64,000 nt of DNA, from the NCBI RefSeq assembly GCF_036567905.1, contig NZ_DATCTO010000069.1, positions 27,899 through 91,898 on the forward strand, given 5' to 3'. The notes under the pieces are model-generated. The model was not told the DNA's origin. It saw only the letters and a list, made by a program, of their open reading frames with translations, and searched no databases. Shown piece after piece: positions 3,871 through 51,939 of this stretch (its first letter is position 1; each line of letters starts with the position of its first letter). This DNA comes from Candidatus Binatus sp. (GTDB lineage Bacteria; Desulfobacterota; Binatia; Binatales; Binataceae). Both the position numbers and the translations under genes were made by a program.

Positions 3871-5112
3871 CTATTCAAATTGTTCGTCGGAGGGTTTGAC
3901 GGCGCGGAACTGAATCAGCAGCGCGATGTCGTAAATCGTTTTGAGCACGCCCGCGCAAATCAGCGGCCATCCAAACGACGACTGATTCAGCATCGCGCCC
4001 GCCGGCAACGGCGCCATCGCCGCTGCCAGGCTGCGCGGCACATTGGTAACTGTCGCCGCGGCGGCGCGCTCCTCGGGCGGCACCACCGCCATCACATACG
4101 ACTGGCGCGCGGGCACGTCCATCTGCGAGGTCGAAAAGCGCAGCAGCAGAAATGTCATCGCCAGCCCCGGGGTCGGCATCAGCGCCGCGATGATCAGCAT
4201 GGCGTTCGACGGCAGATGGCTGAACACCATCGTGTTGATCCGGCCGAACCGCGCCGCAAGCGCCGACGAAATGAACTGTGAGAACGAGCCAAGCAGTCCG
4301 GCGGCGAAGAAAAACGTGCCCGCCGCTTGAACCGAGAGGTTGAACCGGCGAAACAGCCACAGCGCCAGAATTGACTGAATTACGAATCCGCCGCCGAGCG
4401 AGTCGAGACTGAACAGCGCCGAAAGCCGCAGCACGATTGCCCGCGACTTCGCCAGCGGCGCGGACTTGGCTGGTTGCCGCTCGACTTCGATGGCCGGGGA
4501 GAGACGCCGGTAAACCGCGAACGCAATCACCGCGATGATCGAGTACGCGACAAAGCCCGAGCGCAGCGCCGGCGCCAGCGCCCATCCATGGCGCGCCGCG
4601 AGTATCGCCGGCACGCCACTGGCGAGCGCGCCAAACGCACCAGCCGTCGCGCCCGCAACGTTGTACAGCGCGAACATCGCGGTCAGATCGCGAGGTTGTG
4701 CGGCCTCGGCCAACGCCGCTTGCTCGACCGGCAGAAACAGGCTGACGTCGCCGGCCGATGGATTCAGCGTGCCGACGACTGCCACCACGAACAGCAGCCA
4801 GAAACTGGTGGTGGTGGCGAATCCAATTCCCGTCGCCAGCATCAGCGCGCACGCCGCAAGCAGGACTCGGCGCCGGCCCAGCCGATCGGTGGCCAGTCCC
4901 ACCCATAGCGTCAGCGCCGCCGAGCCGAGCAGCGTGCCGAACACGATTGCGCCGACACGCAGTGGATTGAATCCGATCGCGGTCAGGTAGCTCGGCAACA
5001 ATATGCTGACTGCCCCGTCGGCAAGGCCGCGGAGCGCGCGTGTCGTCAGCAGCAGCTTGGCATCGGTCGTAGCGCTGCGCGGGAACCATCGATTGATCGG
5101 ACTCGCCATCAT
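3871..5112 (-). CDS. MFS transporter
   Basis: Multi-TM hydrophobic protein with the MFS loop motif (ATDRLGRRRVLL) and about 12 predicted helices. Start reassigned to the internal MMASPINRW ATG at 5112. Confidence 0.75.
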   Translation of the reverse strand: MMASPINRWFPRSATTDAKLLLTTRALRGLADGAVSILLPSYLTAIGFNPLRVGAIVFGTLLGSAALTLWVGLATDRLGRRRVLLAACALMLATGIGFATTTSFWLLFVVAVVGTLNPSAGDVSLFLPVEQAALAEAAQPRDLTAMFALYNVAGATAGAFGALASGVPAILAARHGWALAPALRSGFVAYSIIAVIAFAVYRRLSPAIEVERQPAKSAPLAKSRAIVLRLSALFSLDSLGGGFVIQSILALWLFRRFNLSVQAAGTFFFAAGLLGSFSQFISSALAARFGRINTMVFSHLPSNAMLIIAALMPTPGLAMTFLLLRFSTSQMDVPARQSYVMAVVPPEERAAAATVTNVPRSLAAAMAPLPAGAMLNQSSFGWPLICAGVLKTIYDIALLIQFRAVKPSDEQFE

Positions 5113-5414
5113 GTTGCAAGGCGCAGGTCTATAAGGCTCGCGCCGCCGAGGAAAGATAGCATAACGCGCTGTCCGCCGATTTGCTCGTTGTGGCATACTC
5201 GTGGCCTCTGCGCGCGTTTTGGAGGAGCAACTGTCCCCGGCCATTCGAAAGGAAAGCTTGATGCGCGTCGAAATCAGCGATGGCGTCGTATGGGGCGAGC
5301 TCGTGGATCAGCTGGTCGAAAAGAGACTCGTGCAACTGATCGCCAAGCCTAAAGGTGATTTGCGGTGAGGCCAAAGCTGGAGCCATCGGACCGTCACCGC
5401 GGCGCTTCGATTAG

Positions 5415-7364
5415 ATGAGCGGCATCGCGGTCCTCTATCAGTGGGACGGGGCTCCAGCCGACCGCTCGACTGTCGAGCGGATGATCGCCATCGTCCCCTA
5501 CCGCTCGGTTGACGGCTTCGGCGTGTGGGGCAACGGCCCGGTCGCGATTGGCCATGCAAAGCTCCAGACCACGCCCGAAGCTTCGGCCGAGACCAGCCCG
5601 TTCGTGGACGAAACCAGCGGACTCGTTCTATCGATGGACGGGCGAGTGGATAATCGCGACGAACTGACGGCGGAGTTGAATTCTCGAGGTCATCGTGTTC
5701 GCACCGGCACGGACGCCGAGATCGTGCTTCGCGCCTGGCAGTGTTGGGGTACGGAGGCGCCGGCAAGGCTGATCGGCGATTTCGCGCTCGCCTTATGGGA
5801 CCCATCGAAGCGGACGCTCTTTTGTGCCCGGGATCCTTTGGGAGTGAAAAGCTTCTATTACTTTAGTGGCCCAGGATTCTTTCTGTGCGCCTCGGAGCTT
5901 CATCAACTGTTCCAGGATCCGAGGATCGTACGAAGACCGAACGAGCCTGCTATAGCCGACATTCTGGTAAGAATGCCCGCAAATCGCCAGGAGACTCTCT
6001 TCGAGGGCATTGTCCGCCTCGAACCGGCGCATTATCTCAGCGTGAGCGCGCGGGGCGTGGAAAGCCGGCGCTATTACGATCTGGACCCCTCGCGGGAGAT
6101 CACCTATCGGACCGATGAGGAATACGGTTCGCACTTTCTCTCGCTGTTCAAGGAGGCGGTGCGATGCCGGCTTCGGAGCAACAAAGGAGTGGCGTCGGAC
6201 CTGAGTGGCGGGCTGGATTCGGGATCGATTGTCTGTTTGACCGAACAACTACGCCGCGACGGCGAGGTCCACGTCCCGAGTTTTGAGACCTTTTCAGTTC
6301 GCTTCGAGACCGGACCCGGCGCCGAGGCTGAGTACGTCGAAGAGGTCTTGCGCAAGTACCCTCATCGCCACACCTATCTTCCTTCAGGCGTGGCCCCGCT
6401 CACCGAACTTATTCGGCAAGTTGCGCACTACCTGGACCTGCCCGACTATCCCAACTCGGCGCTAGCCGATTACGCGCCACTCCTGGGCAAGCGCAATGAC
6501 CTGGGAGTCCGGCTGACCGGAGTGGGTGGCGACGAATGGCTTTCCGGAACGTCGCTGGTATATGCAGACTTGATCAGGCAGCTGCGGATTGCGGCGCTGT
6601 TGGAGACGCTGCGGATTAATCGAAACTTTTCCGGCGGGTACCCTGCCCATCCGGGCTACGCCAGGACTCTTTGGCGGTATGGAGTCTGGCCGCTCCTGCC
6701 CGAGAGCCTCAAGTCCGTGATCGATCGATGGCGGAGTCCTCCGCAGCCGACCGCTACGGTGTCGCGCGCGTTCGCGGCCAGGACGAGGCTATCGGAGCGG
6801 CTGTCCACGCGATTGCCGTTGCCCCGATGCCGCAGCTTTGCACAGCAGGCCGTGTACGGGGTTTACTCGTCCGGATTTCTCGCCTACGCGCTGGAGATCG
6901 ACGCACGCTGGACAGCGCGTTTTCGACTCGAGGGGCGCCAGCCGTTGCTGGACCGCCGCGTGCTGGAGTTTGCCTTCGCCATACCGGATAACCAACGTTT
7001 CAGGCCCGGCGTCAGCAAGTTCGTGATGCGCGAAGCGATGCGCGGAATCCTACCGGAGCGGGTGCGACTGCGGCCTGACAAGGCCGACCCGACCGAGGCA
7101 TACGCAACCGCGCTAATTGCGCTTGGTGGAGAGCGGCTGTTCGATCGCCTCAACGTCGTCGAAAACGGATGGGTGGACGGGGAAGCGGTTCTAAGCCTGT
7201 ACCGCTCGATGGCTGCCAAGTTTTCGCGCGGCGACCCCTCTTACATGAAGAATGTATGCGATCTATGGATGGTACTTGCGGTCGAACTGTGGCTCGATGT
7301 GGTGTTTCTCGGTATCAGCGACCCGCTCAAGCACGTGACCGAAGCCGAGCAAGCGGCTTTGTGA
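5415..7364 (+). CDS. asparagine synthetase (AsnB) family protein; candidate lasso-peptide macrolactam synthetase (C protein)
   Basis: N-terminal Ntn-glutaminase-like domain aligns with AsnB (DGRVDNRDEL, TDAEIVL, GDFALALWD, ARDPLGVKSFYY), but residue 2 is Ser rather than the catalytic Cys (MSGIAV, not MCGI). The PP-loop SGGLDSGSIV is present. A lasso-type precursor ORF follows immediately. Confidence 0.8.
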   Translation: MSGIAVLYQWDGAPADRSTVERMIAIVPYRSVDGFGVWGNGPVAIGHAKLQTTPEASAETSPFVDETSGLVLSMDGRVDNRDELTAELNSRGHRVRTGTDAEIVLRAWQCWGTEAPARLIGDFALALWDPSKRTLFCARDPLGVKSFYYFSGPGFFLCASELHQLFQDPRIVRRPNEPAIADILVRMPANRQETLFEGIVRLEPAHYLSVSARGVESRRYYDLDPSREITYRTDEEYGSHFLSLFKEAVRCRLRSNKGVASDLSGGLDSGSIVCLTEQLRRDGEVHVPSFETFSVRFETGPGAEAEYVEEVLRKYPHRHTYLPSGVAPLTELIRQVAHYLDLPDYPNSALADYAPLLGKRNDLGVRLTGVGGDEWLSGTSLVYADLIRQLRIAALLETLRINRNFSGGYPAHPGYARTLWRYGVWPLLPESLKSVIDRWRSPPQPTATVSRAFAARTRLSERLSTRLPLPRCRSFAQQAVYGVYSSGFLAYALEIDARWTARFRLEGRQPLLDRRVLEFAFAIPDNQRFRPGVSKFVMREAMRGILPERVRLRPDKADPTEAYATALIALGGERLFDRLNVVENGWVDGEAVLSLYRSMAAKFSRGDPSYMKNVCDLWMVLAVELWLDVVFLGISDPLKHVTEAEQAAL

Positions 7365-7388
7365 CGCATTAGTCACAATACCTGTTTC

Positions 7389-7418
7389 TTGACATACAAT
7401 TACGGGTCTTGCTATGTT
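7389..7418 (+). promoter_or_regulatory. candidate sigma70 promoter for the precursor peptide gene (TTGACA-N18-TATGTT)
   Basis: TTGACA lies at 7389-7394 and TATGTT at 7413-7418, about 27 nt upstream of the 7445 ATG. A GGGAGTGG RBS sits between them. The palindrome GTGAC-N6-GTCAC (7359-7374) overlaps the asnB-like stop just upstream. Confidence 0.4.
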
Positions 7419-7444
7419 GATTTCGCTGGATTCGGGAGTGGAAA

Positions 7445-7609
7445 ATGACCAAAAGTAGGGAACAACCGGCGAAAAAGAAAGAAGAGCGAGCAAAGCGACG
7501 CTATGCTCGTCCTCGTCTGATAAAATACGGCAGCGTTTCCAAGCTCACCGCCTCCGGCGGTTCCGCACTTCCGGTTGACGGCTCGAGCATCAGGAAGCCC
7601 GGGCCCTGA
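7445..7609 (+). CDS. lasso peptide precursor (A peptide), 54 aa: leader MTKSREQPAKKKEERAKRRYARPRLIKYGSVSKLTA, core SGGSALPVDGSSIRKPGP
   Basis: Hand-translated small ORF that is absent from the ORF track (<60 aa), with a GGGAGTGG RBS 5-6 nt upstream. The leader matches the YxxPxLxxxGxxxxxTx RRE-recognition motif exactly (Y-17, P-14, L-12, G-8, T-2). Core residue 1 is Ser and Asp is at core position 9, implying a 9-membered ring. It sits directly 3' of the AsnB-like gene. Confidence 0.65.
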   Translation: MTKSREQPAKKKEERAKRRYARPRLIKYGSVSKLTASGGSALPVDGSSIRKPGP

Positions 7610-7779
7610 CTCCCAGCTCCGTGGAAGTTCAGATCCGTAAAGAGCTTCCGGAGCCCCCGCATCATCAATGATGTGGTGATTCCGAAATGTAGTGAGTCCG
7701 ACAATTCCGGGAGTAGAGTAGGATTCGCCTTCAAGGGGTACCGCGCCGAGCGAGTCTCCACTGGGAACACGCTGAGCGG

Positions 7780-8784
7780 GTGCGCTGCGTAGCCGACTTG
7801 AGCAAACCGAGGATCCGAAACTTCCATAGCCAAGCCTACGGGCTGCAAATCGTTACCGACATCCCGCTTCCGGAGCTTCCGCCACTTCGGAGGTCGCCGA
7901 TCAGGTCGGCGGTTCGCGCGACTCTCGGCGGGCGCTTTCAGCGCATCGGGCTCAATCCCCAATGGTACCTGCGTTCGCGGCTTCCAGGCGGCCGGACTTG
8001 GCTGCGCTGCGGCAAGACCGCGGGCGGTTATGTACTTTCCTTTGCTGATATCGCCGACTTTGTCGTTGACGGCTCCGGAAGCCAGGTAGTCTGCTGCAAC
8101 GCCGGCAGCGACGTTAGTCTGGAGACCGTCCGTCATCTGCTGATCGACCAGGTGCTTGCGCTGATTGTAAACCTGCGCGGGCGCGACGCCCTGCACGCTA
8201 CCGCCGTCGCGACGCACAGGGGAGTTTGCGCATTCACGGGGCCTGCCGGGTCGGGCAAATCGACGCTCGCCGCGAGCTTTGTCCTGTCGGGCTATCCGCT
8301 GGTCTGCGATGATTGCCTGGCGGTTGCCGAGCGCAAGACAATTATGGCGCTCCCGGGGTATCCGGGCTTGCGGCTGTGGGACGATTCGATACGGGCGCTT
8401 GGCGCAAGTTCACGCAATCTGAAGCCGGTTGCGCACTATACGACGAAATCGCGCTGGCAAGACCATTCTCGACGCGCCGACTTCTGCTCGACGCCGCGCC
8501 GGCTCGCGCGCATCTATTTGCTCAAGCGCGCGCGCTCGAGCAAACACTCAGACCGCGTCCTCATCCAGGAACTCGCTCCCGCCGACGCGCTGATGGGCCT
8601 GGTCAAGGCGGCCTACCGGCTCGACATCACCGACCGCGCGATGCTGACGCGTCAGTTCCAGTTCCTCTCCCGCGTTGCCGAGCGCGTCGCGGTCAAACGC
8701 CTCATCGTGCCCAACGAATTTTCCGCACTCGCCGATGTAAGAGAAGCCGTCCTGCGCGACTTAAGCGAAGGACCGGCCGCTTGA
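7780..8784 (+). CDS. HPr kinase/phosphorylase-like (HprK-related) kinase
   Basis: Walker A GPAGSGKST followed about 12 aa later by LVCDDC, matching the HPrK/P G-x-S-G-x-GKS ... LVADD arrangement. Proteins of this type are known tailoring kinases in lasso clusters. The exact start is uncertain. Confidence 0.65.
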   Translation: MRCVADLSKPRIRNFHSQAYGLQIVTDIPLPELPPLRRSPIRSAVRATLGGRFQRIGLNPQWYLRSRLPGGRTWLRCGKTAGGYVLSFADIADFVVDGSGSQVVCCNAGSDVSLETVRHLLIDQVLALIVNLRGRDALHATAVATHRGVCAFTGPAGSGKSTLAASFVLSGYPLVCDDCLAVAERKTIMALPGYPGLRLWDDSIRALGASSRNLKPVAHYTTKSRWQDHSRRADFCSTPRRLARIYLLKRARSSKHSDRVLIQELAPADALMGLVKAAYRLDITDRAMLTRQFQFLSRVAERVAVKRLIVPNEFSALADVREAVLRDLSEGPAA

Positions 8785-8955
8785 CCACGACACCGCGCGG
8801 AGTGATTTGTGCGCGTTACCTTGCGCAAGACAGTGGCGCGGCGGACGACACATCCGCCTTAGAATTCACAGTGAACAGAGGATTGCCGCCTTCAATACGG
8901 TAATCGCTGGAGCCGAGGCGAGTCTTCGGTGGCGGCGATCAGAACCCTCGCCGGC

Positions 8956-8984
8956 CCTCCGCGGATTGCGTGAATCCGCGGAGG
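8956..8984. terminator. perfect 12-bp-stem hairpin between convergent genes (putative bidirectional terminator)
   Basis: CCTCCGCGGATT-gcgtg-AATCCGCGGAGG lies between the kinase gene stop (8784, + strand) and the beta-helix gene stop (9032, - strand). No clear U-tract. Confidence 0.4.
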
Positions 8985-9031
8985 TCACCGGCAAAACGAG
9001 GAAGAACCAAGCTTATACTTCACCGCACTTA

Positions 9032-10039
9032 TCAGGATCCCAGTCCTCCGATGCAGGCAGGACTTGACGCAGCGCCGGCGCTCGAAGTGCCAAAGCTATT
9101 GTTGTACCAGAGATTATTGCCGCAGGAAGCGGTCGCGTCGCGGAGATCGAAGGTGGTGGTGCCGTCGCCGTTGCCGGTGGCGTTAACGGTCGAGACCTGG
9201 TCCTGAGACGTCGATTCACTGGTATCCAGCAAAACCCCATTTCCGGTGTTGTCAGAGACTCCGTTTGGCGACGCGATAAACGCGTCAAGCACAGACGCAC
9301 TAGTATTTGCCTTGCCAAACGATGTACCGCCTAAGTGGACTGCGTTGCCCGCGTTATCTGCAGCGATGAATACGGTCGCACTAGGCTGGTCACCGTTTTG
9401 AATGAGCAATCCGTCACCGCCATTGTCAGTAGTTGAAAAGTCAAAAATCGTGCATTCATCGCTACATCCATTGAGGAAAATGCCGGTACCGGTGTTTCCC
9501 GATACAGAGAAATTACCCCATCTGTCTGTGCCCCCCATCATCAGCAGTCCGGTACCATTGGCCAAAGTAGTAGAAGGAGGAAAGGCTCCGATATTAACAT
9601 CGTCCCCTACGGTGTTGCCGCCGGAATCCGAGATCCCCGTCCGAAACCCTGTCACGAAGGCATTAAAGCCCTCCACCACGTTGTTGTCACCGGTGATCCT
9701 GATACCAGCCCCGGAAGTTACCGTGCTACCCGGACCGCTTATCGTGTAGCCATTGAGGAGCAAGGCGTCCCTGTCGCCCGTCAAATTAATACAGTTGGCG
9801 GTGGTGCTCGTCGTCGAGAGGTTACCCGTAAGATAGTAGATCGTGTTGGTCCCACCTAGATTCGACGTCGGGCAGTTGGGGCCGTTAACCGCCGTAGGAT
9901 CAGGTCCGGCTGCCCCCGCGATTGCACCGGTATGCTTGTGCTTGGCCCATGCAGTCCCCGGTGCCGCTAAGCCAACTCCGACCGCAAAAGCCAAAAGCGC
10001 TACGCTCAGGGTCTTGGTTATTCGATTCATCTCATCCAT
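9032..10039 (-). CDS. secreted parallel beta-helix repeat protein (Gly/Thr/Asn-rich)
   Basis: Signal peptide (TLSVALLAFAVGVGLAAPGTAWA) followed by repetitive G-x-N/G-T-G-I/L... turns typical of a right-handed beta-helix. A paralog lies at 50847..51728. Confidence 0.55.
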   Translation of the reverse strand: MDEMNRITKTLSVALLAFAVGVGLAAPGTAWAKHKHTGAIAGAAGPDPTAVNGPNCPTSNLGGTNTIYYLTGNLSTTSTTANCINLTGDRDALLLNGYTISGPGSTVTSGAGIRITGDNNVVEGFNAFVTGFRTGISDSGGNTVGDDVNIGAFPPSTTLANGTGLLMMGGTDRWGNFSVSGNTGTGIFLNGCSDECTIFDFSTTDNGGDGLLIQNGDQPSATVFIAADNAGNAVHLGGTSFGKANTSASVLDAFIASPNGVSDNTGNGVLLDTSESTSQDQVSTVNATGNGDGTTTFDLRDATASCGNNLWYNNSFGTSSAGAASSPACIGGLGS

Positions 10040-10287
10040 CCTTCTTTCGCTTTTGTTTCGTTGTCCTTACCGATACACAATTAACAGAACTGATTGCGCA
10101 ACACGTTCGTTTACGACGTGCTGTAGCAGAATTGACAACTTTACGAACGGCCGTGAATCATTCCATTTGGCCTTCTTTGTGTCAAGCGGTTTTATGACGC
10201 CCATTGACGGCTTTCTTATTCGATTTTAGCGGTTAGAAGTCGTACATTAGGCTGAGAGACGTATATCTCTACAATTTGTTATCCTAG

Positions 10288-11592
10288 TTGCCGGCAAGAC
10301 GGAAGCCGCTGTCGCCGTTTGATACACTTGTAATGCGCAGTTGGTCCACGCTTGCGCTTCGAGCTATTGTTCACAACTCAATGGCATCCGACGCTCTTCT
10401 CGACCTTGCCGATTTGTCGATCGAAGCGGCACTCGTGCTCTGCTGCGCGACAACTGCGGCTACGGCTGCGCGCACGGCGCTGGCGTCCGAGGTTGCGCCG
10501 CGCATACGCAGTTGGGACCGCGTCGTCGATATCGCCAAACGTCATGCGGTGCTCCCGCTGGTGCATCGCTATCTGAAACTCGAATGTCCGACCGCGGTTG
10601 CGCAAGAGGGGCTTGCGAAGCTGCGGACCCAGTGGCAGCTGATCATTCTCTACAACCGTCATCTGACCGCCGAACTTGTGCGCCTGATGGGCCTGCTGGA
10701 GGCGGCTGGAGTTGCGGCGGTCACCTTCAAGGGTCCGGTGCTTGCCGCGATGGCATACGGATCAATCGAACTTCGCCAGTTCAGCGATCTGGATATTCTG
10801 GTGCGCCAGACTGACCTGCCCCGGGTCGCCGAAATACTCACCGCCGAACGATATTTGTCGCCACATACCAGGCGCGAAGGCCTCGCGACCGGCTACTTTC
10901 AGGAGTACGAGGACGCCTTCATCGGACCCGACGGGCTGGGCGCGGTGGACGTTCATTGGAACATCACGCCGCGCTCGTTCCGTTTCGCCCCCGACGAGGA
11001 AGCCCTGTGGCGGCGCGCGCGCGGGGTCGATCTGGAGTTCGGCAAAGTGATGGCGATCGCGCCCGACGACCTGCTGCTATACATCTGCGTCCACGCCGCA
11101 AAGCATGGATGGATCACGCTCGGATCGATCTGCGACGTCGCCGAGACCATTCGGGCGCGTCCGGGAATCGATCTGATGGGGATGCTCGACGAGGCGACCG
11201 CGCTCGGGAGCCGGCGGATGTTCCTGACCGGCATCTGCCTGGCGCACGAGCTGGCCGGCGCGCCGGTCCCCGCCGAGCTTGTCACGATAGCTCGCGGCGA
11301 CCGCGCCGCCCGGGCGTTAGCGCGACGCGTCGCGGGGCGACTGTTCAAGGGAGCCACGCAGGGACGGGCAGACTTCGATCCGTGGGCGGTTCCGATCCGC
11401 TCGATCGAGGGCGCGCGCGCGCGAATGCGGTACATCGTCCGCCGAACGCTGGCGCCGACGATGGGCGACTATGAACTTATCGCGCTGCCGGCGGCGCTCT
11501 TTCCGCTCTACTGGGTGATTCGGCCGTTTCGGATGGCGGTGCAATACGGGCCGCGGCTGGTGCGCGGCTCTTCAAACAGTTCGAACGCGTGA
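10288..11592 (+). CDS. nucleotidyltransferase family protein (PF14907-like 'uncharacterised nucleotidyltransferase')
   Basis: The hG[GS]...D-h-D nucleotidyltransferase core is present: GPVLAAMAYGSIELRQFSDLDILV. Size of about 430 aa is consistent with the family, which recurs in kinase-containing lasso clusters. The start may be later, e.g. the MASDALL ATG. Confidence 0.55.
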   Translation: MPARRKPLSPFDTLVMRSWSTLALRAIVHNSMASDALLDLADLSIEAALVLCCATTAATAARTALASEVAPRIRSWDRVVDIAKRHAVLPLVHRYLKLECPTAVAQEGLAKLRTQWQLIILYNRHLTAELVRLMGLLEAAGVAAVTFKGPVLAAMAYGSIELRQFSDLDILVRQTDLPRVAEILTAERYLSPHTRREGLATGYFQEYEDAFIGPDGLGAVDVHWNITPRSFRFAPDEEALWRRARGVDLEFGKVMAIAPDDLLLYICVHAAKHGWITLGSICDVAETIRARPGIDLMGMLDEATALGSRRMFLTGICLAHELAGAPVPAELVTIARGDRAARALARRVAGRLFKGATQGRADFDPWAVPIRSIEGARARMRYIVRRTLAPTMGDYELIALPAALFPLYWVIRPFRMAVQYGPRLVRGSSNSSNA

Positions 11593-11626
11593 GCGTTCTC
11601 AATCTTTGATTTTTTAGCGGATTTGC

Positions 11627-11702
11627 TGGTGAGCCGGCCGGGACTTGAACCCGGGACCCTGTGATTAAAAGTCACATGCTCTACCGCCTGAGCTACCGGC
11701 TC
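11627..11702 (-). tRNA. tRNA-Lys (anticodon UUU), 76 nt with encoded CCA
   Basis: Reverse complement folds as a cloverleaf: acceptor GAGCCGG/CCGGCTC, D-arm TAGCTCAGGCGGTAGAGCA, anticodon stem TGTGA/TCACA with loop CTTTTAA, T-arm CCGGGTTCAAGTCCCGG, discriminator A, CCA. Confidence 0.85.
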
Positions 11703-12164
11703 ACCCGAGAGATTTCAATGCTTACAGGTAATTCGAAGCGTTGGAAACAGTCGCGACTTCACAACTCGGTTGCGCAACTCCGCCGCGCTTTGATTTCAAC
11801 TGCGCATGTTCTGCGAAAAACTCTATTTTTTCAGCTAGTTAAACCAGCTCGAAGCGTGGCGCGCCGTTGCCGGAAGAGCGACGGAAATGAGGCCGGTGAA
11901 GACGCGAGGCTATGTCATTTTCAATCAAATTTTCGATCCAACGCCATCGTGATTGCAGCGCGCTCATCACAGTGAAGGGCGCGATAGCAAAACACAAGGT
12001 GAGTGGCCGTTGCTCAAAATCGGCAAATTCCGCCCTGAACAGCTTGACATGCTACCCACTACTCGAATATATCCAAATCCTACAAATTAGTAGAGCGGGT
12101 TTAGTAAATTAGTGTGGGCAAATTAGTGTAGGTTGGAAGAATCAGCGCTCGAGAGGAACCAAGC

Positions 12165-13388
12165 ATGCGCCTACAAGAGTACTCGGCGAACGGATCGCCG
12201 GTCGCGGCTGCGAGGCATAAGCCTGGCGCCGAGCCGGCGGCCGCGACGTGCGAGTGGTTGAGCCTGGGGGAACTTGCGCATGGGTCGGAGCGGATTGGCG
12301 GGGCGGTGGTGCGGTCGGCGCACGCGCGCAAGATACTCAAAACCATTTCGCGCTTGAGTCCGTACAAGTCAACGGTCCTGATTCAGGGCGAATCGGGAAC
12401 CGGCAAGGAGTTGGTCGCGCGAGCGTTGCATACGCTGGGTGCGGTGCCAAGCGGCCCGTTCGTGACCTTCAACTGCTCCAACCTGGTCGAGTCGCTGGCA
12501 GAGTCGCAGCTTTTCGGTCATGTGCGCGGCGCTTTCACCGATGCGCGCGAGGATTCACTCGGCTATTTCCGCTCCGCCAACGGCGGAACTCTGTTTCTGG
12601 ACGAAGTCGGCGAGCTGCCGCTGCGCCTGCAGCCCAAGTTGCTGCGCGCGCTCGATACCCACGAGATTCAGCCGGTCGGTTCGTCACGCACCTACTCGGT
12701 TGATATTCGGCTGGTCGCGGCAAGCAATCGCGACCTGCACGCGATGGTGAAGGCAGGCCAATTCCGCGACGACCTCTACTACCGCCTTAACGCGGCGGCA
12801 ATCCTGGTTGCGCCGCTGCGCCAGCGGCGCGAGGCAATCCCGGCCTTCGTCGCCCATTTTATCGAGCACTTCAACCGCCTGTTCGGCAAGGACGTAAAGC
12901 TCGTTTCGCGGATCGCCGTGGACGCGCTGTGCGCAAATGACTGGCCCGGTAATGTCCGCGAGCTCGGCCATGCAATCGAGAGCGCGGTTCTGATGACCGA
13001 AAACGATCGTATCGATCTCGACGACCTGCCTTTGCGCCACGACGATTCGAATGGGGAAGCGCTGGACAAGCCGGTCGAGGCGGCGGTGCAAAACGGCGGG
13101 CTCAATCTCGAGGGCGGGCCCGATGGCGCCGGGATTGACTGCGCGAACGCGTCGAAGCGATGCTTCGAAATGGCGGGCTGGCCCTACTCGCTCGACGCGG
13201 TAATCCGCGAGGCCTCGAAGCTCGCGCTGATTCGCGCGCTGCAGGCGACCGAGGGCAATTGCCATCGCGCGGCCGAGATGCTGGGCGTATCGCGCTACAC
13301 GGTTTACCGGATGCTGAACCGGTTTGGCCTGGGCGAAGGACGCACCTACAGGACGCTGCGCAAGTCGATCGTCCGCCACGCGTCTTGA
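12165..13388 (+). CDS. sigma54-dependent Fis-family transcriptional activator (no receiver domain)
   Basis: AAA+ sigma54-interaction domain (LIQGESGTGKELVARALH, GAFTDA, ESQLFGH) and a C-terminal Fis-type HTH (AAEMLGVSRYTVYRMLNRFGL). The short N-terminus has no REC or GAF domain. Confidence 0.85.
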   Translation: MRLQEYSANGSPVAAARHKPGAEPAAATCEWLSLGELAHGSERIGGAVVRSAHARKILKTISRLSPYKSTVLIQGESGTGKELVARALHTLGAVPSGPFVTFNCSNLVESLAESQLFGHVRGAFTDAREDSLGYFRSANGGTLFLDEVGELPLRLQPKLLRALDTHEIQPVGSSRTYSVDIRLVAASNRDLHAMVKAGQFRDDLYYRLNAAAILVAPLRQRREAIPAFVAHFIEHFNRLFGKDVKLVSRIAVDALCANDWPGNVRELGHAIESAVLMTENDRIDLDDLPLRHDDSNGEALDKPVEAAVQNGGLNLEGGPDGAGIDCANASKRCFEMAGWPYSLDAVIREASKLALIRALQATEGNCHRAAEMLGVSRYTVYRMLNRFGLGEGRTYRTLRKSIVRHAS

Positions 13389-13521
13389 ATCTCGCCTGGA
13401 TGCTGGCGCCGTGGCCAGCGTAACCGGGCAGAGCTTCCGGGATTTCGAAATCATTTGCGTTGACGACGGCTTGACCGATCGAATCCGCGCAATCGTTGCA
13501 ACGCAGCAAGCCGCTTGTTCG

Positions 13522-14451
13522 CTAGCGGGCGGCGCGCGAGCGGCCGCTGAGCGCCCGCGCCACGGCGTCCGGCAGCAAAGTCCTGGCGAACCGCAGGTAA
13601 TTCTTGATTCGTAATGGATCGAAGCGGATTGCGCGCGCGAATGCGCGGCGTGCCAGCGTCCGATCGCCATCGCGGAGCGCGTGAAGCCCGATATAGCCGA
13701 GGATGCTGCGCGGCGCGCGACGACGGGCGAGCACGTGGTGATGCGCCGACACGCCGTAGCGCTCGCGCACCATCCGCTCGAAGATTGCGCCCGCCTCCTC
13801 CTGCCCTCCGCCGGGCTTGAGCGGCTCCGGGAACAGCGCGAAGCGCCATACCGCGAGCGGCTCCGCCAGATGGTGAAAGTTTCCGTATTCGCGCGCGCGG
13901 AGCCAAAGGTAAACGTCCTCGAACGCGATCAGATCCTCCGGGAATCCGCCCGCAAGCTCGAACACGCTTCGGCGCATCACGACTCCACTGGGCAGGATGG
14001 GCCACAACCGCTCGAGCATCTCGCCTACGGTTGGCGCGTGACTCGCGCCGGCCAGCGCGGCCATCTGCTCCCGCCCGGTGCTGTCGGCCAGGGCAAGATC
14101 CGTGTAAACGAGGCCGCAATCGGGGTCGCAGTCAAGCGTCTGGACCGTGCGCTCGAGCATCGCGGGCAGCCACCAATCGTCGGCGTCGAGGAACGCCAGG
14201 TACTCGCCCGACGATGCGCGCACGCCGGTGTTGCGGGCCGCGGAGGGCCCGCGCTTTGGCTCCTCGAGAATCTTTACCCGCCCGGCGAATCGCGCGAGAA
14301 CCTCGCGGCTGGAATCGATCGACCCATTATCGATCGCGATGATCTCGAAATCGGTGAAGGTCTGCGCGAGCACGCTCTCGATCGCGCCCGCCACCGTAGA
14401 GGCGCCATTGTAAACCGGGATGATTACCGAAACCCGCGGCATCCGGCACAC
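13522..14451 (-). CDS. GT2 family glycosyltransferase
   Basis: VSVIIPVYNG...IIAIDNGSID...LDADDWW matches the GT-A DxD-type family 2 signature. Confidence 0.8.
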   Translation of the reverse strand: MCRMPRVSVIIPVYNGASTVAGAIESVLAQTFTDFEIIAIDNGSIDSSREVLARFAGRVKILEEPKRGPSAARNTGVRASSGEYLAFLDADDWWLPAMLERTVQTLDCDPDCGLVYTDLALADSTGREQMAALAGASHAPTVGEMLERLWPILPSGVVMRRSVFELAGGFPEDLIAFEDVYLWLRAREYGNFHHLAEPLAVWRFALFPEPLKPGGGQEEAGAIFERMVRERYGVSAHHHVLARRRAPRSILGYIGLHALRDGDRTLARRAFARAIRFDPLRIKNYLRFARTLLPDAVARALSGRSRAAR

Positions 14452-14463
14452 CCAATAGGCGGG

Positions 14464-15369
14464 CTACGCGACCGCCGAACGGCCGGCGCCGGCGCCGTGA
14501 CGGGTGGGGCCGATTGCGGCGCGCGGGTGCTTCCACGCCGAGAGATCGCGCCCGGTCATCCGCTCCAGCGCCTCGACCTCGGGCCGAAAATGCTCGCGCA
14601 TCCGCGCTTCGGTCTCAGGGTCGAGACTCGGGAAAGCCTGGCCGCCGCCGAAGCATAAGCGCCATACTCCGGCGCGCTCGAGCGCGCTTAACGCGCGATG
14701 CCATCGATGCGTCCGCATCCAGTCGCGGGCGTTGCGCGCACTCTGCGCGAGGCGCCGGCTTCTCGGCGCGTGCGTGACCGCATTGACGCGCTCGGAGGCT
14801 CCGACCGTCGCGGCAACCTTGAACGGCGCGATCCCGATGAAGCCGCAGATGCGATCGAGGTAGCCCTGCGGGTCGGCTTCGAGATCGTCGTAGATGCATA
14901 CCAGCACATGCTCGGCGCCGAACATGCGCTGCCACTGTGCCAGATGATGCGCATAGCGGCTCGACTCGCGGATGATGGGGTTGCGCGCGACGGTCTCCTC
15001 GAAGCCCACCCGCGTCCACGCATCGCGGCGCATCACCCGGTACGACGAGTACGCGCGCTCGGTTGGGTCGCGAAACGAACAGATGATCCGGCATTCCGGG
15101 ACGTGCTGCGCTATCCGCTCGCGCGCCTCGGCCGAGCCGAAATAGTTGGGATCGATCTCTCCAACCGGCAGGCCGCAGCGGCAGTTACGGAAGTAATCGA
15201 GGTACCAGTCGATCCCCCTGTCGTAATGGCGAACGAAGAAGTCGGTCTCCTTGGCGCCTTCGGGAAGGCCAACGTGGCCGCGCAGCGCTTGGTCGAGCCA
15301 GGTGGTGCCCGTGCGCTGCGGTCCGACCGCGATGAAGTCCGGAAGCCGCGCGGTGCGCGTGGCGCTCAT
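14464..15369 (-). CDS. sulfotransferase family protein
   Basis: 5'-PSB loop FIAVGPQRTGTTWL and a 3'-PB-like FRDPTERAYSSY motif. Paralogous to the three genes at 16.8-19.6 kb. Confidence 0.75.
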   Translation of the reverse strand: MSATRTARLPDFIAVGPQRTGTTWLDQALRGHVGLPEGAKETDFFVRHYDRGIDWYLDYFRNCRCGLPVGEIDPNYFGSAEARERIAQHVPECRIICSFRDPTERAYSSYRVMRRDAWTRVGFEETVARNPIIRESSRYAHHLAQWQRMFGAEHVLVCIYDDLEADPQGYLDRICGFIGIAPFKVAATVGASERVNAVTHAPRSRRLAQSARNARDWMRTHRWHRALSALERAGVWRLCFGGGQAFPSLDPETEARMREHFRPEVEALERMTGRDLSAWKHPRAAIGPTRHGAGAGRSAVA

Positions 15370-15598
15370 GACGGGTCTCGAAGCGCACGCCGCGCAGCGG
15401 GCTCGGCCACTACATCCGCTTTTCCTATTTGAATCTCCAATTGCAACTCCCGGATACGCCCGACGCGCTCGGCTGCGCCGCGCGCCCCCCGGGCGTCCCT
15501 TGGCGTCGCCGTGCGGCTCCCGGCGGAAATCGCGTCGGGATGGGACTGCCGTCCTGCGAGGCGGTGGGCCTGCAGCGGCCGATAGTTCGTCACACTAA

Positions 15599-16729
15599 TC
15601 ACGCGCGTTTCCGCGAACAAATCGCATTTTCGTAAACCGCAAGATAACGCCCGGCGACGCGGGGCCAATCGTACTCGGCGCGCACGGTGGCGAGTCCGCG
15701 TTGTCCCATCTGGTTGCACTCGTCGGGGTGCGTGACCATCCAGCGCATCGCGGCGGCGAACTCCGGAGCCTCATTACGCTCCACCAGAAGACCTTCTTCT
15801 CCATCATGCACGACTTCCGGCACGCCTCCGCTGCGAGTGGCGATTACCGGTCGCCCGCACGCCATCGATTCCAGGAACACCAGGCCGAGGCCCTCTGGCC
15901 GGCGGCTCGCCATGACGAAGAATTGCGCGCCCTTGTACAGCTCCCAGAGCGTGGCGCGCGGGACAGCTCCGGTTAGTTCCACCCGTTTGTCGATTCCCAG
16001 CTCGCTCGCCAGTGCTGTCAGGCGCGCGCGATCAGCCCCCTCCCCCGCGATAACCAGGTCAAGCTCCGGGTGCGACGAGCAAATCGCGGCGAAGGCCTCG
16101 ATCACCACATCCAGCGCCTTGGATGAAAGATCAAGCCGCGACGCCGTCAGTATGTATGGGCGCGCGCGGCGAAAGGGCACACTTTGCGCCGCTCGGGCGC
16201 AATCCACTCCGCCGCGGATGACTTGCGCGCTGGCGATCGGCGGGTAAAACCTCGCCAGGCCGTTGCGCACCGATTCGGTCAGCACGCACAGGACGGTCGC
16301 CCCCGTGAGCGCTTTGAGCGCAGCCGGATAGGACCAATCGCCGCCATAACAATCCTGAAGAGTCTGCACCAGCGGCACGCACGCGAGTCTGGCCCCATCG
16401 GCAATCGCGGCTAATTTGTTCCACTGATTCACGTGCGAATTCACTACGTCGGGCCGCACGCGCCGGAGCAGCTCGGCCAATTCATGCCCGCGCCGCAATC
16501 GCAAAAGCCGCTCTGGATGGCGCAATGACGGCCGCTTGGTTGCGGGTATCCGCAAGCTGTGAACCGGCAGCCGGCTCAACGGCTCGCGCTCCGCTCCGGC
16601 AACGCCATAGTGGGTGCAGGCCACCTCGACGTGATGCCCTGCCAGCAGCATCTCGCTCGCGAGGTTATCCACGAACTCGGCAATTCCGCCGATGAAACGA
16701 AACTGCGTGCACAGAAGGAGGATTCGCAT
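15599..16729 (-). CDS. GT4 (GT-B fold) glycosyltransferase
   Basis: N-terminus MRILLLCTQFRFIGGIAEFV and a C-terminal E-x7-E-like region (FVMASRRPEGLGLVFLESMACGRPVIATRSGG), as in glycosyltransferase family 1/4. Confidence 0.8.
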   Translation of the reverse strand: MRILLLCTQFRFIGGIAEFVDNLASEMLLAGHHVEVACTHYGVAGAEREPLSRLPVHSLRIPATKRPSLRHPERLLRLRRGHELAELLRRVRPDVVNSHVNQWNKLAAIADGARLACVPLVQTLQDCYGGDWSYPAALKALTGATVLCVLTESVRNGLARFYPPIASAQVIRGGVDCARAAQSVPFRRARPYILTASRLDLSSKALDVVIEAFAAICSSHPELDLVIAGEGADRARLTALASELGIDKRVELTGAVPRATLWELYKGAQFFVMASRRPEGLGLVFLESMACGRPVIATRSGGVPEVVHDGEEGLLVERNEAPEFAAAMRWMVTHPDECNQMGQRGLATVRAEYDWPRVAGRYLAVYENAICSRKRA

Positions 16730-16837
16730 GGCATCAGGCTGCGCGCCCCGACCTCGCTAATCCGTGGAATCGTATCAGAGCGTGGTGACGGCGCAACCTC
16801 ATGAGCGATGAAATCGGGCAGTCTCGGTTGACGGCCG

Positions 16838-17779
16838 CTATTTGAAGATTGGGTCGTGAAGATCGTCAAGGCTGGTCGCGCCCGCAACAGACCTCGCTGC
16901 CTTGCGCTCATCGCTGTGGCCGGCTGGTGGCGCGCACGGTTTCTTCCATGCGGAAAGATCGATCATAAGCAATTCCTCGAGCGCCTCGACTTCGGGGAGG
17001 TAAAGCTCGCGCAGGCGCTCCTCCTGCTTGGGCGTCAGCCGGCCGAACGGCTCGCCGCGGCCGTGGCAGAAATCCCATACGCCGCAGCGGTCCAGAAAAT
17101 TTATCGCGCCGTATGCCTGGCGGAGCTTGAACCAGTACATCAAGCGCGTCGCGCGGCGCGCGAGTCTGCGATTTTTTGGCGCGCGCTCGAACGAATGCAC
17201 GTCGTCACCGATTTCGGGCCGCTCGGAAAGTACAATCCGCCCGATGCCCATGAAATCGGTCACCCGATCAAGATACGACTGCGGCTGCGCGCGCAAGTCA
17301 TCATACATCGTGATAAGTACGTTCTCGCGGCCGAAGGTCTCGAACCATTTGCTCAGGTAGAACGCGTAGCGGTTGCCGCCGCCCAGACTGGGCCGGGCTT
17401 TGAGCGCCTCTTCGAACGATCCGCGCGCCCACGCAAAGTGAATCAGCATCTTGTAAACCGAAAACGAGTGCTCGACCGGATCGCGCAGCGTGGTGATTAC
17501 GCGACAGTTCGGAATGTACGTCTTGATGCGATCGGACGCGAGCGGATGGAACAGGTAGGGACAGACCTCGACGATCGGCCGCTCGCCGGTTGCGTAGCGA
17601 AAATGGCGCGCGTACCAGTCGATGCCCTTGTCGTAGTAATGGCTGAAAAACTGGGTCTCCTTGACCCCGTAGGGCAGATCGACGTGGCCTTCGAGGACGC
17701 GATGCAACCATGTAGTGCCGGTGCGACCGGGACCGGCGCCGATGATCGAAGGGAGCCGGCGTTTGATGCTTGCGCTCAT
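16838..17779 (-). CDS. sulfotransferase family protein (paralog 2)
   Basis: Start reassigned to the internal ATG (MSASIKRRLPSIIGAGPGRTGTTWL). The LRDPVEHSFSVY motif is present. The start overlaps the upstream gene's stop as ATGA. Confidence 0.75.
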   Translation of the reverse strand: MSASIKRRLPSIIGAGPGRTGTTWLHRVLEGHVDLPYGVKETQFFSHYYDKGIDWYARHFRYATGERPIVEVCPYLFHPLASDRIKTYIPNCRVITTLRDPVEHSFSVYKMLIHFAWARGSFEEALKARPSLGGGNRYAFYLSKWFETFGRENVLITMYDDLRAQPQSYLDRVTDFMGIGRIVLSERPEIGDDVHSFERAPKNRRLARRATRLMYWFKLRQAYGAINFLDRCGVWDFCHGRGEPFGRLTPKQEERLRELYLPEVEALEELLMIDLSAWKKPCAPPAGHSDERKAARSVAGATSLDDLHDPIFK

Positions 17780-51728: not shown

Positions 51729-51939
51729 ATTTTGCTTTCTCCGTTGGCGGATTGTTCGCGGGCGAGCCGCGCCGCGGCGCCGATGCCGCGGCGCAAATTG
51801 AAAAGGGCCATTTCCGGAATTTCAATTTTGGGCCACGATTGAAGATGGCTTATATCCGAACGCCCCGCCCGTCACAACCGCCAGCCCGGGTTTCGCTCAG
51901 CTGATTACGTAGCTGCGATCTGCAACCGCGTGCGCGCGC

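What the first reader, a model, noticed from the sequence alone, without database searches (positions are those of the whole stretch)
3871..11592. Lasso-type RiPP locus with kinase and nucleotidyltransferase but no visible B1/B2 protease
The locus is C (AsnB-like, 5415-7364), A (7445-7609), an HPr-kinase-like protein (7780-8784: GPAGSGKST...LVCDDC), a PF14907-like nucleotidyltransferase (10288-11592: GS...FSDLDILV) and an MFS exporter candidate (3871-5112). This combination is known for phosphorylated lasso peptides (paeninodin-like clusters). The leader clearly carries an RRE-recognition motif. Even so, no PqqD-like B1 or transglutaminase-like B2 ORF is detectable anywhere in the 64 kb on either strand. 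A convergently oriented secreted beta-helix gene interrupts the cluster. Either B is encoded in trans, or this is an unusual architecture.
Basis: partly seen in the sequence, partly recalled or inferred. Interest (0 to 1): 0.85.

Follow-up and report, generated by a model that had tools for sequence, protein, structure and literature searches.

The report
Lasso peptide cluster with eroded leader-processing genes
This is a real lasso-peptide gene cluster in a Candidatus Binatus genome that has lost its leader-cutting protease gene and keeps only a 35-codon stump of its leader-binding gene. It probably depends on copies of those genes elsewhere in the genome, or it has been inactivated.

Summary
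They are MFS(-), lasso cyclase C, precursor A, an HprK-like kinase K, a secreted beta-helix protein BH(-) and a PF14907 nucleotidyltransferase N.

B2 is absent from all 64 kb. B1 is not completely absent. A 35-codon ORF (5261-5368), 47 nt upstream of C, is a PqqD/B1 gene with an in-frame 177-nt internal deletion. Ten relatives carry an intact 92-95 aa B1.

Eighty related loci from Binataceae, Nitrospira and Entotheonella show the usual order B1-B2-C-A-(MT)-K-N. The window belongs to a subclade with the order MFS(-)-B1-C-(MT)-A-K-BH(-)-N. In that subclade 11 of 17 species-level loci with enough flanking sequence lack a local B2. Trees suggest at least three independent losses. BH is therefore a conserved member of the locus, not an interruption.

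C, A and K evolve under purifying selection similar to flanking genes. The leader motif is intact.

Binataceae also carry conserved loci with B1-B2-(K)-N-ABC but no C or A. One lies on the same contig as a B2-less locus. The best explanation is therefore processing in trans. Recent inactivation and B-independent maturation remain rivals.

Precursors in this family almost never end in Ser, unlike paeninodin-type clusters.

The parts
3871..5112 (-). MFS transporter and candidate exporter, divergent from the B1-relic/C operon. The longest ORF extends to 5244.
   Evidence: PF07690 at 5.8e-29. It holds the same position in L003, L009, L010, L012, L017-L019, L021, L024 and L025, and an MFS gene also sits next to K in the distant loci L040, L050 and L060. 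It has the lowest dN/dS of the region, 0.10-0.17.
5261..5368 (+). B1 (PqqD/RRE) relic of 35 codons, MRVEISDGVVW|GELVDQLVEKRLVQLIAKPKGDLR. An in-frame 177-nt (59-codon) internal deletion has its junction near 5293/5294. The start codon, the stop codon and the 47-nt spacing to C are retained.
   Evidence: DNA alignment with L003 shows a single 177-column gap. L003 encodes a 94-aa PF05402 protein. The family B1 HMM gives E = 3.7e-11 in two pieces, HMM positions 28-74 and 131-152. In L009 the deleted stretch is flanked by GATCTCG direct repeats. The relic gives no Pfam hit, while L009 B1 scores 65.7 bits for PqqD.
5415..7364 (+). Lasso cyclase C (Asn-synthetase-like macrolactam synthetase), 649 aa, intact.
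   Evidence: NF033535 is the best hit at 436.8 bits (family cutoff 525). PF00733 and GATase_6/7 also match. Homologues sit directly after B1-B2 and before A in 30 loci. dN/dS against L009 is 0.19.
7445..7609 (+). Precursor A, 54 aa. The leader spans 7445-7552 (…YARPRLIKYGSVSKLTA) and the core spans 7553-7606 (SGGSALPVDGSSIRKPGP). The predicted ring is Ser1-Asp9.
   Evidence: NF033521 scores 20.7 bits, above its cutoff of 19. The motif YxxPxLx3Gx5Tx is read directly from the sequence. Homologous precursors occur in about 70 loci. A sigma-70-like site lies at 7389-7418 (not significant).
7780..8784 (+). HprK/PEPCK-fold P-loop kinase K, 334 aa.
   Evidence: Sequence hits are weak: TIGR04352 at 1.7e-9 and PF07475 at 0.009. 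H139, K160, D177 and D178 are invariant in 16 homologues. The AF2 model has pLDDT 86.7 and matches PEPCK (E = 1.7e-7) and HprK/P catalytic domains (E = 5e-6, TM 0.52-0.64) by Foldseek. 784 homologues were found, mostly from Binataceae.
9032..10039 (-). Secreted right-handed beta-helix protein BH, convergent with K. It is a conserved member of this subclade's locus. Its function is unknown.
   Evidence: No Pfam hit. The AF2 model has pLDDT 84.7 and shows a signal-peptide helix followed by a beta-helix. Foldseek gives only generic weak matches to tailspikes and AlgE4 epimerase. It is present between K and N in 23 fetched loci and beside a second lasso cluster in L064. It evolves fast, with 38-60% identity where K is 63-85% identical. 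A paralogue lies at 50850-51821(-).
10381..11592 (+). PF14907 nucleotidyltransferase N, 403 aa from the ATG. The TTG at 10288 would give 434 aa.
   Evidence: PF14907 at 1.6e-54. A DxD motif (FSDLDILV) is read from the sequence. Logan called the gene as 403 aa. It has no B2 domain.
11627..11702 (-). tRNA-Lys(UUU), marking the right-hand edge of the locus.
   Evidence: ARAGORN.

Best explanation
The locus is a genuine lasso-peptide biosynthetic cluster of a Candidatus Binatus genome. It belongs to a large Binataceae/Nitrospira family whose usual gene order is B1-B2-C-A-(methyltransferase)-K-N. In this lineage the leader-processing module has eroded. B2 is gone from the locus, a state shared with the nearest relatives. 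B1 is reduced to a 35-codon in-frame deletion relic, which is unique to this lineage and lacks the leader-binding part of the PqqD fold. C, A, K, BH, N and the MFS gene are intact.

The most likely mode of operation has several inferred steps. The 54-aa precursor is recognised through its conserved YxxPxLxxYGxxxxLT leader and cut after Thr-Ala by a B1/B2 pair encoded elsewhere in the genome. Binataceae carry conserved loci with B1-B2-(K)-N-ABC and no C or A, which could supply these. C then joins the amine of Ser1 to Asp9. K phosphorylates the peptide at a site other than a C-terminal Ser. N adds a further group, by analogy with PsmN. The MFS protein exports the product.

Shown here: gene identities, the deletion, the absence of B2 in the window, the distribution across relatives, the selection estimates and the existence of the separate B1-B2 loci. 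Inferred: trans processing in this genome, the ring position, the chemistry of K and N, and export.
For: Gene identities.
B1 relic and its uniqueness.
B2 absence in the window.
Distribution in relatives: 47 species-level loci have at least 6 kb on both sides of K. Of these, 30 have C+B1+B2 and 11 have C+B1 but no B2, all in the BH subclade. NJ trees of C and K place B2-less loci next to B2-bearing ones at least three times. Repeated loss is what would be expected if the local copy were redundant.
Continued constraint: dN/dS between the window and L009 is 0.19 for C, 0.25 for A and 0.38 for K, against 0.17-0.52 for flanking genes. B1 in ten relatives, eight of them B2-less, is intact with a median dN/dS of 0.29. 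The leader motif, including Thr-2, is kept in every B2-less locus.
Trans source: L083 carries B1-B2-K-N-ABC with no C or A within 10 kb. It lies on the same 1.65-Mb contig as the B2-less and N-less locus L023. Syntenic loci of the same type occur in L089, L090 and L091. Their B2 passes the cutoff of the lasso B2 model NF033537 (69 bits against 33).
Against: No B1/B2 locus could be shown for this genome or for its closest relative L009. Among 94 homologues of the L083 B2, none lies on a contig with the length of the window's contig or of the contigs of L009, L003, L012, L010 or L011. None carries an accession near HEY9158424. That search also missed the known B2 genes of L017-L024, so it is insensitive.
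Only one same-contig pairing (L023/L083) was found.
The B1 deletion is unique to this lineage while B1 is otherwise strictly conserved. This fits recent inactivation equally well.
Pairwise dN/dS cannot isolate the branch after the deletion.
Confidence: 0.5

Rival explanations
1. The cluster has recently been inactivated. After B2 was lost, the 177-nt deletion destroyed B1, so the precursor can no longer be processed. The remaining genes have not yet accumulated disabling mutations.
For: The deletion removes 59 of 94 codons, including the part of the PqqD domain that Pfam recognises (residues 18-83 in L009 B1). Every relative examined keeps an intact B1 under purifying selection, which implies that B1 matters. 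The region upstream of C is prone to rearrangement. In L019 the B2 ORF ends in a fragment of a deleted B1 (…EPDELRHDLDNL).
Against: C, A, K, BH and N are full-length, with dN/dS of 0.19-0.45, no higher than flanking genes. The deletion is exactly in frame and keeps the start, the stop and the spacing to C. A second B1 exists in the separate B1-B2 loci of related genomes.
Confidence: 0.3
2. Maturation does not need B proteins. As shown for pseudomycoidin, the cyclase alone makes the macrolactam after a housekeeping protease removes the leader, so B1 and B2 are dispensable in this kinase/nucleotidyltransferase type of cluster.
For: PMC6993621 reports that a psm cluster lacking psmB1 and psmB2 still produced pseudomycoidin in E. 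coli and B. subtilis, and that psmC plus the core peptide sufficed. That cluster is also of the K+N type. B2-less loci persist across many species-level lineages. The distant loci L007, L044 and L087 have only C-(A)-K.
Against: B1 is kept intact and constrained in B2-less relatives. The full leader motif and Thr-2 are also conserved. Neither is expected if recognition by dedicated proteins had been abandoned. In the cited work the product made without K and N was not a threaded lasso, and leader removal without B1/B2 limited the yield.
Confidence: 0.13
3. The B1 deletion is an assembly artefact, and the real genome has an intact B1.
For: The window derives from a metagenome-assembled genome.
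Against: The identical junction is present in two Logan assemblies of separate sequencing runs and in the window. The deletion is in frame and lies between short direct repeats, as expected for a real slippage or recombination event.
Confidence: 0.04
4. The AsnB-like gene is a polysaccharide-type amidotransferase of the neighbouring glycosyltransferase/sulfotransferase region, and the small ORF is a chance ORF.
For: TIGR03108 (XrtA/PEP-CTERM amidotransferase) also matches at 212 bits, and an EPS-like gene set lies downstream of 13.5 kb.
Against: The lasso cyclase model scores twice as high (437 bits). The small ORF passes the lasso leader model cutoff. Orthologues of C lie between B1-B2 and A in 30 loci.
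Confidence: 0.02

Closest known systems
Pseudomycoidin (psm) cluster of Bacillus pseudomycoides: psmC, A, K, B1, B2, N, D (PMC6993621)
   Same: It combines a lasso cyclase, a precursor, an HprK-type kinase and a nucleotidyltransferase annotated as uncharacterised. There is experimental precedent that B1/B2 can be omitted in vivo. N in the window has a DxD motif, and PsmN D134/D136 are the proposed catalytic residues (sequence reading; the equivalence was not aligned).
   Different: The psm cluster encodes functional B1 and B2 and an ABC exporter. Its substrate ends in Ser, which is phosphorylated and then glycosylated. The window has no B2, only a B1 relic, an MFS gene instead of an ABC exporter, an added conserved beta-helix gene, and a core ending in Pro. 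The host phylum also differs (Binatota rather than Bacillota).
Paeninodin-type phosphorylated lasso clusters: PadeK, ThcoK, SyanK (PMC9266682, PMC8498205)
   Same: An HprK-like kinase is encoded beside lasso A and C. The reported His-Lys-Asp-Asp catalytic motif has counterparts here (H139, K160, D177, D178, invariant).
   Different: A C-terminal Ser is described as extremely conserved in substrates of those kinases. Here only 1 of 67 distinct cores ends in Ser, and the window's core ends in …RKPGP. The sequence relationship to characterised kinases was not measured. Matches to the HprK models are far below their cutoffs.
Canonical split-B lasso clusters (B1 PqqD/RRE + B2 transglutaminase-like protease + C + A)
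   Same: More distant members of the same family (L005 and 29 others) have exactly this core. The leader motif YxxPxLx3Gx5Tx is the standard one.
   Different: In the window the B module is missing (B2) or truncated (B1).
HPr-rel-A system of NCBIfam/TIGRFAMs (TIGR04352 HprK-related kinase A, TIGR04353 PqqD family chaperone)
   Same: It pairs a PqqD-family protein with an HprK-related kinase. The Binataceae loci with B1-B2-K-N-ABC and no cyclase look similar in outline.
   Different: K scores 37 bits against a cutoff of 200 for TIGR04352. L083 K scores 20 bits. L009 B1 scores 21 bits against 35 for TIGR04353. These proteins are not members of those families.

Membership tests
Lasso peptide biosynthetic cluster | Asn-synthetase-like macrolactam synthetase (C) | tested here: met
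   NF033535 is the best hit at 436.8 bits (1.5e-130). This is below the curated cutoff of 525, but so is the 509-bit score of the C protein in the canonical relative L005. Orthologues sit between B1-B2 and A.
Lasso peptide biosynthetic cluster | Precursor with a leader recognition motif, Thr at -2, a small residue at core position 1 and Asp/Glu at core positions 7-9 | tested here: met
   NF033521 scores 20.7 bits against a cutoff of 19. The leader reads Y20-x-x-P23-x-L25-x3-G29-x5-T35-A36, and the core has S1…D9. The pattern is conserved in about 70 loci.
Lasso peptide biosynthetic cluster | RRE / PqqD-like B1 (or the N-terminal domain of a fused B) | tested here: not met
   Only a 35-aa relic with a 59-codon internal deletion is present. 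It gives no PF05402 hit. No other B1 hit occurs in the 64 kb.
Lasso peptide biosynthetic cluster | Transglutaminase-like Cys protease B2 | tested here: not met
   The family B2 HMM gives a best E of 0.29 across all six-frame segments of at least 25 aa. No PF13471 match occurs in the Pfam-scanned ORFs. The rest of the genome was not available.
Paeninodin/pseudomycoidin-type phosphorylated lasso peptides | HprK-like kinase with the catalytic His-Lys-Asp-Asp motif | tested here: met
   H139, K160, D177 and D178 are invariant. The fold matches HprK/P and PEPCK. Enzymatic activity was not tested.
Paeninodin/pseudomycoidin-type phosphorylated lasso peptides | C-terminal Ser of the core as phospho-acceptor | tested here: not met
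   The core ends in Pro, and 1 of 67 family cores ends in Ser. The feature is taken from PMC9266682.
Paeninodin/pseudomycoidin-type phosphorylated lasso peptides | PF14907 nucleotidyltransferase (psm subtype) | tested here: met
   PF14907 at 185.6 bits. That PsmN itself belongs to PF14907 was not checked here.
HPr-rel-A system (TIGR04352/TIGR04353) | Kinase scoring above the TIGR04352 cutoff | tested here: not met
   37.2 bits against a cutoff of 200.
Right-handed beta-helix (PF13229-like) secreted proteins (BH) | Parallel beta-helix fold with an N-terminal signal peptide | tested here: met
   The AF2 model has pLDDT 84.7 and consists of stacked short strands from residue 49 to 332. Foldseek matches beta-helix proteins only, at E >= 1.8e-3. 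One homologue and the window paralogue hit PF13229. No catalytic assignment is possible.

The most novel reading that the evidence does not exclude
B2-less clusters of this subclade may be a natural lasso pathway that works without any dedicated leader peptidase. In the window it would also work without an RRE. Leader removal would be taken over by a general protease or by a locus-specific partner such as the conserved secreted beta-helix protein. The kinase would act on an internal Ser/Thr (46 of 67 cores carry G-[ST] at positions 3-5) rather than on a C-terminal Ser.
Probability: 0.12. Interest if true: 0.8.

Novelty: new variant of a known kind. Interest (0 to 1): 0.5.

Why it matters
Lasso clusters that lack B genes are usually dismissed as incomplete. 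Here the B2-less state recurs in many species-level lineages. In those lineages the cyclase, the precursor leader and B1 remain constrained. The same bacterial family also carries conserved loci with B1-B2-(K)-N-ABC but no cyclase or precursor. If the two kinds of locus work together, this would be a lasso pathway split across the chromosome, and genome-mining tools that require co-localised A, B and C would miss it.

The family also pairs HprK-like kinases with precursors that lack the C-terminal Ser used by all characterised lasso kinases. That points to a different modification site.

The window itself is a natural B1-deletion, B2-less variant. It could be used to test whether these peptides need dedicated leader processing.

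Tried and rejected
1. Looked for a B2 domain hidden in N, K or C. Fusions of B2 with the nucleotidyltransferase are reported in PMC8498205. The B2 HMM gave no hit in any frame. C has about the same length as in the B2-bearing relative L019, judged from the coordinates. The N-terminal domain of K is all beta-strand, unlike an RRE.

2. Tried to place a trans B2 on the contigs of the window, L009, L003 or L012 by matching the 'longest_contig' values of 94 homologues of the L083 B2, and by comparing accession numbers. There was no match. The search also missed the known B2 genes of L017-L024, so the result is uninformative. A look-up of the window's BH protein returned only Logan contigs, not the NCBI record.

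3. Scanned for a sigma-54 promoter upstream of the B1 relic, prompted by the conserved sigma-54 activator at 12165-13388. The site TGGCATACTCGTGGCC matches 8 of 12 consensus positions by my own count, below the scan's reporting cutoff of 9, and 30 sites in the window reach 9 or more. I dropped this lead.

4. Tested whether BH co-varies with the core peptide. Spearman correlation was 0.42 with the core and 0.34 with the leader, against 0.57 with K and with C. This is inconclusive.

5. Sequence searches of PDB with BH, K and N gave nothing below E = 0.06.

6. Literature searches for lasso peptides in Binatota and for clusters lacking B2 found nothing relevant.

7. The promoter and terminator scan of the locus was not above the shuffled expectation.
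Full report
**What is in the window**

- The gene at 3871-5112(-) is an MFS transporter (PF07690, 5.8e-29).
- The 649-aa protein at 5415-7364 has GATase and Asn_synthase domains. Its best NCBIfam match is the lasso cyclase model NF033535 (436.8 bits, 1.5e-130). This compares with 237 bits for AsnB and 212 bits for the XrtA/PEP-CTERM amidotransferase.
- The 54-aa ORF at 7445-7609 passes the cutoff of the lasso leader model NF033521. It reads …Y-AR-P-R-L-IKY-G-SVSKL-T-A | SGGSALPVDGSSIRKPGP. This is an exact YxxPxLx3Gx5Tx leader, followed by a core with Ser1 and Asp9.
- The protein at 7780-8784 matches HprK models only weakly. H139, K160, D177 and D178 are invariant among 16 homologues. Its AF2 model (pLDDT 86.7) matches PEP carboxykinase and HprK/P catalytic domains.
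- The protein at 10288/10381-11592 is a PF14907 nucleotidyltransferase (1.6e-54).
- The protein at 9032-10039(-) has a signal peptide. Its model is a right-handed beta-helix (pLDDT 84.7), with only generic structural neighbours.
- A tRNA-Lys gene at 11627-11702(-) closes the locus.
- The organism is a Candidatus Binatus sp. An identical BH protein carries the NCBI accessions HEY9158424.1 and WP_331963642.1 on a 126,055-bp contig.

**The B genes**

B2 is absent from the window.
- I built a B2 HMM from 49 B2 proteins found in related loci. Those proteins score 114-190 bits.
- The HMM was run with filters off against all 1320 six-frame segments of the window of at least 25 aa. Its best hit had E = 0.29 in a non-coding frame.
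- Pfam scans of 20 further mid-size ORFs found only housekeeping families.

B1 is not entirely absent.
- The related locus L003 has a 94-aa PF05402 gene between the MFS gene and C.
- The window aligns with L003 base for base across this region, except for a single 177-nt gap inside that gene.
- The result is a 35-codon ORF at 5261-5368. It keeps the start codon, the stop codon and the 47-nt spacing to C.
- It encodes MRVEISDGVVW joined to GELVDQLVEKRLVQLIAKPKGDLR. These are the first strand and the last helix of the PqqD fold, without the middle.
- In the closest relative, L009, the deleted segment is flanked by GATCTCG direct repeats. This is consistent with a slippage or recombination deletion.
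- The family B1 HMM detects the relic at E = 3.7e-11. Pfam does not detect it.
- The same junction occurs in Logan assemblies of two sequencing runs.

**Relatives**

The kinase has at least 784 homologues, mostly from Binataceae. A scan of one genome per species returned 80 loci from Binataceae, Nitrospira, Entotheonella and others. I annotated them with HMMs built locally for B1, B2, C, A, K, N, BH, MFS and a PRMT-like methyltransferase, MT.
- The usual order is B1-B2-C-A-(MT)-K-N, as in L005.
- The window belongs to a subclade in which K is at least 56% identical to the window's K. Its order is MFS(-)-B1-C-(MT)-A-K-BH(-)-N.
- The beta-helix gene is therefore a fixed member of this subclade's locus in 23 fetched loci, 18 of them separate species-level genome loci (L009-L026). 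It also lies beside a second lasso cluster in L064.
- 47 species-level loci have at least 6 kb on both sides of K. Of these, 30 have C+B1+B2 and 11 have C+B1 but no B2. All 11 are in the BH subclade, where 6 others retain B2.
- NJ trees of C and K place B2-less loci beside B2-bearing ones at least three times. The two trees also disagree on where the window sits, which points to mosaic evolution within the cluster. The trees have no bootstrap support values.
- The B1 and B2 genes of relatives are bona fide lasso genes. L009 B1 scores 65.7 bits for PqqD. The B2 proteins of L017 and L019 score 77-79 bits for Transglut_core3. The L019 and L083 B2 proteins score 78 and 69 bits for NF033537, whose cutoff is 33.

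**Is the cluster still under selection?**

- Between the window and L009, dN/dS is 0.19 for C, 0.25 for A, 0.38 for K and 0.45 for BH.
- This is within the range of the flanking CBS, histidine kinase, MaoC, MFS and sigma-54 activator genes, 0.17-0.52.
- B1 is intact at 92-95 aa in all ten relatives examined, eight of which lack a local B2. The median pairwise dN/dS is 0.29.
- The leader motif and Thr-2 are retained in every B2-less locus.
- Dedicated leader recognition therefore still appears to matter in the subclade. The B1 deletion is peculiar to the window's lineage.

**A possible source of B1 and B2 in trans**

- Four of the 47 well-flanked loci have K but no C. Three of these carry B1 and B2.
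- L083 encodes B1, B2, K, N and an ABC exporter, with no C or A within 10 kb.
- It lies about 0.9 Mb from L023 on the same contig, CAVWLM010000002.1. L023 has B1-C-MT-A-K-BH but no B2 and no N.
- Homologues of the L083 B2 occur in syntenic loci in other Binataceae assemblies. These loci read luciferase-like oxidoreductase, PqqD, Transglut_core3, (K), N, ABC, and again lack C and A (L089, L090, L091).
- The two kinds of locus are complementary in gene content.
- I could not show such a locus for the window's genome or for L009.

**Mechanism and rivals**

The best-supported reading, at about 0.5, is a lasso cluster that relies on B1/B2 encoded elsewhere. The precursor would be cleaved, cyclised by C from Ser1 to Asp9, tailored by K and N, and exported by the MFS protein.

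The main rival, at about 0.3, is that the B1 deletion recently disabled the cluster.

A third possibility, at about 0.13, is maturation without B proteins. There is experimental precedent in the same K+N class. Pseudomycoidin is still made in E. coli and B. subtilis when psmB1 and psmB2 are removed (PMC6993621). The conservation of B1 and of the leader in relatives argues against this.

Assembly artefact and a non-lasso identity are unlikely.

**Comparison with known systems**

The closest characterised clusters are pseudomycoidin (C, A, K, B1, B2, N, D) and paeninodin. Shared features are the HprK-type kinase with the His-Lys-Asp-Asp motif and, for psm, a nucleotidyltransferase.

The differences are:
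- no B2 gene;
- only a relic of B1;
- an MFS gene rather than an ABC exporter;
- a conserved beta-helix gene;
- no C-terminal Ser, which is described as extremely conserved in substrates of the known kinases.

On the last point, only 1 of 67 distinct cores in this family ends in Ser. By contrast, 46 of 67 have G-[ST] at core positions 3-5.

The kinase is not a member of TIGR04352, scoring 37 bits against a cutoff of 200.

**Verdict**

The locus is a new variant of a known kind of system. It is of moderate interest for three reasons: the recurrent B2-less state paired with separate B1-B2 loci, the natural B1 deletion, and a kinase family whose substrates lack the canonical acceptor residue.

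Noticed in passing
L005, L013, L020, L023, L029, L035, L036, L042 and others (precursor genes next to the PRMT-like methyltransferase): 23 family precursors end in Cys-Leu, and 22 of them lie in loci that also encode a PRMT/PrmA-like methyltransferase between C and K. This suggests a C-terminal modification coupled to that enzyme. The window has neither feature.
   Followed up: partly
L083:9012-14195; L089, L090 and L091 around 9400-14800: Conserved Binataceae loci encode PqqD, lasso B2, (K), PF14907 N and an ABC exporter, with no cyclase or precursor within 10 kb. They are always downstream of a luciferase-like oxidoreductase. L089 and L090 lack K.
   Followed up: partly
L019:7082-7585 (+) and L019:6762-7037 (-); L024 similar: The B2 ORF of L019 ends in …EPDELRHDLDNL, a fragment of the C-terminal part of a deleted plus-strand B1. 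A divergent second B1 sits on the minus strand next to the MFS gene. The region upstream of C seems prone to rearrangement.
   Followed up: no
window 50850-51821 (-): A paralogue of the locus beta-helix protein lies far from the lasso genes. It gives a weak PF13229 hit (6.9e-4). L020 has three tandem copies next to its cluster.
   Followed up: partly
L051:3405-9394 and L059:4917-9666: Several cyclase-HMM segments lie in tandem upstream of A-K, three of them in L051. B1 and N are nearby but no local B2 is present in L059. Some segments in L059 may be fragments caused by assembly frameshifts.
   Followed up: no
window versus L009-L024 (C, A, K, BH, N): The gene trees disagree. K and N of the window are closest to those of L010, L021, L012 and L011. 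C, the leader and BH are closest to those of L019, L017 and L018. This implies recombination within the cluster.
   Followed up: partly
window 12165-13388 (+): A sigma-54-dependent activator without a receiver domain (PF00158, 2.1e-62) lies just beyond the tRNA-Lys gene. It is in the same position in L003. No convincing sigma-54 promoter was found upstream of the lasso operon.
   Followed up: partly
window 13497-19628: A block of glycosyltransferase and sulfotransferase genes (GT2, GT4, Sulfotransfer_1/3) follows the locus, resembling an exopolysaccharide region. It is not conserved next to the cluster in L003.
   Followed up: no
L007:7907-11020, L044:905-4054, L087:1949-4810: Distant relatives, including Entotheonella, have only C-(A)-K with no B1, B2 or N on the sequence held for them (within 10 kb in L007; L044 and L087 are short contigs or contig ends). 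The Entotheonella precursor-like ORFs have long Pro/Lys-rich tails.
   Followed up: no
L003:7332-9291; L023 and L026 C genes: In several long-read assemblies the cyclase is split into two or more ORFs. These look like frameshift errors of the assemblies rather than real pseudogenes.
   Followed up: no
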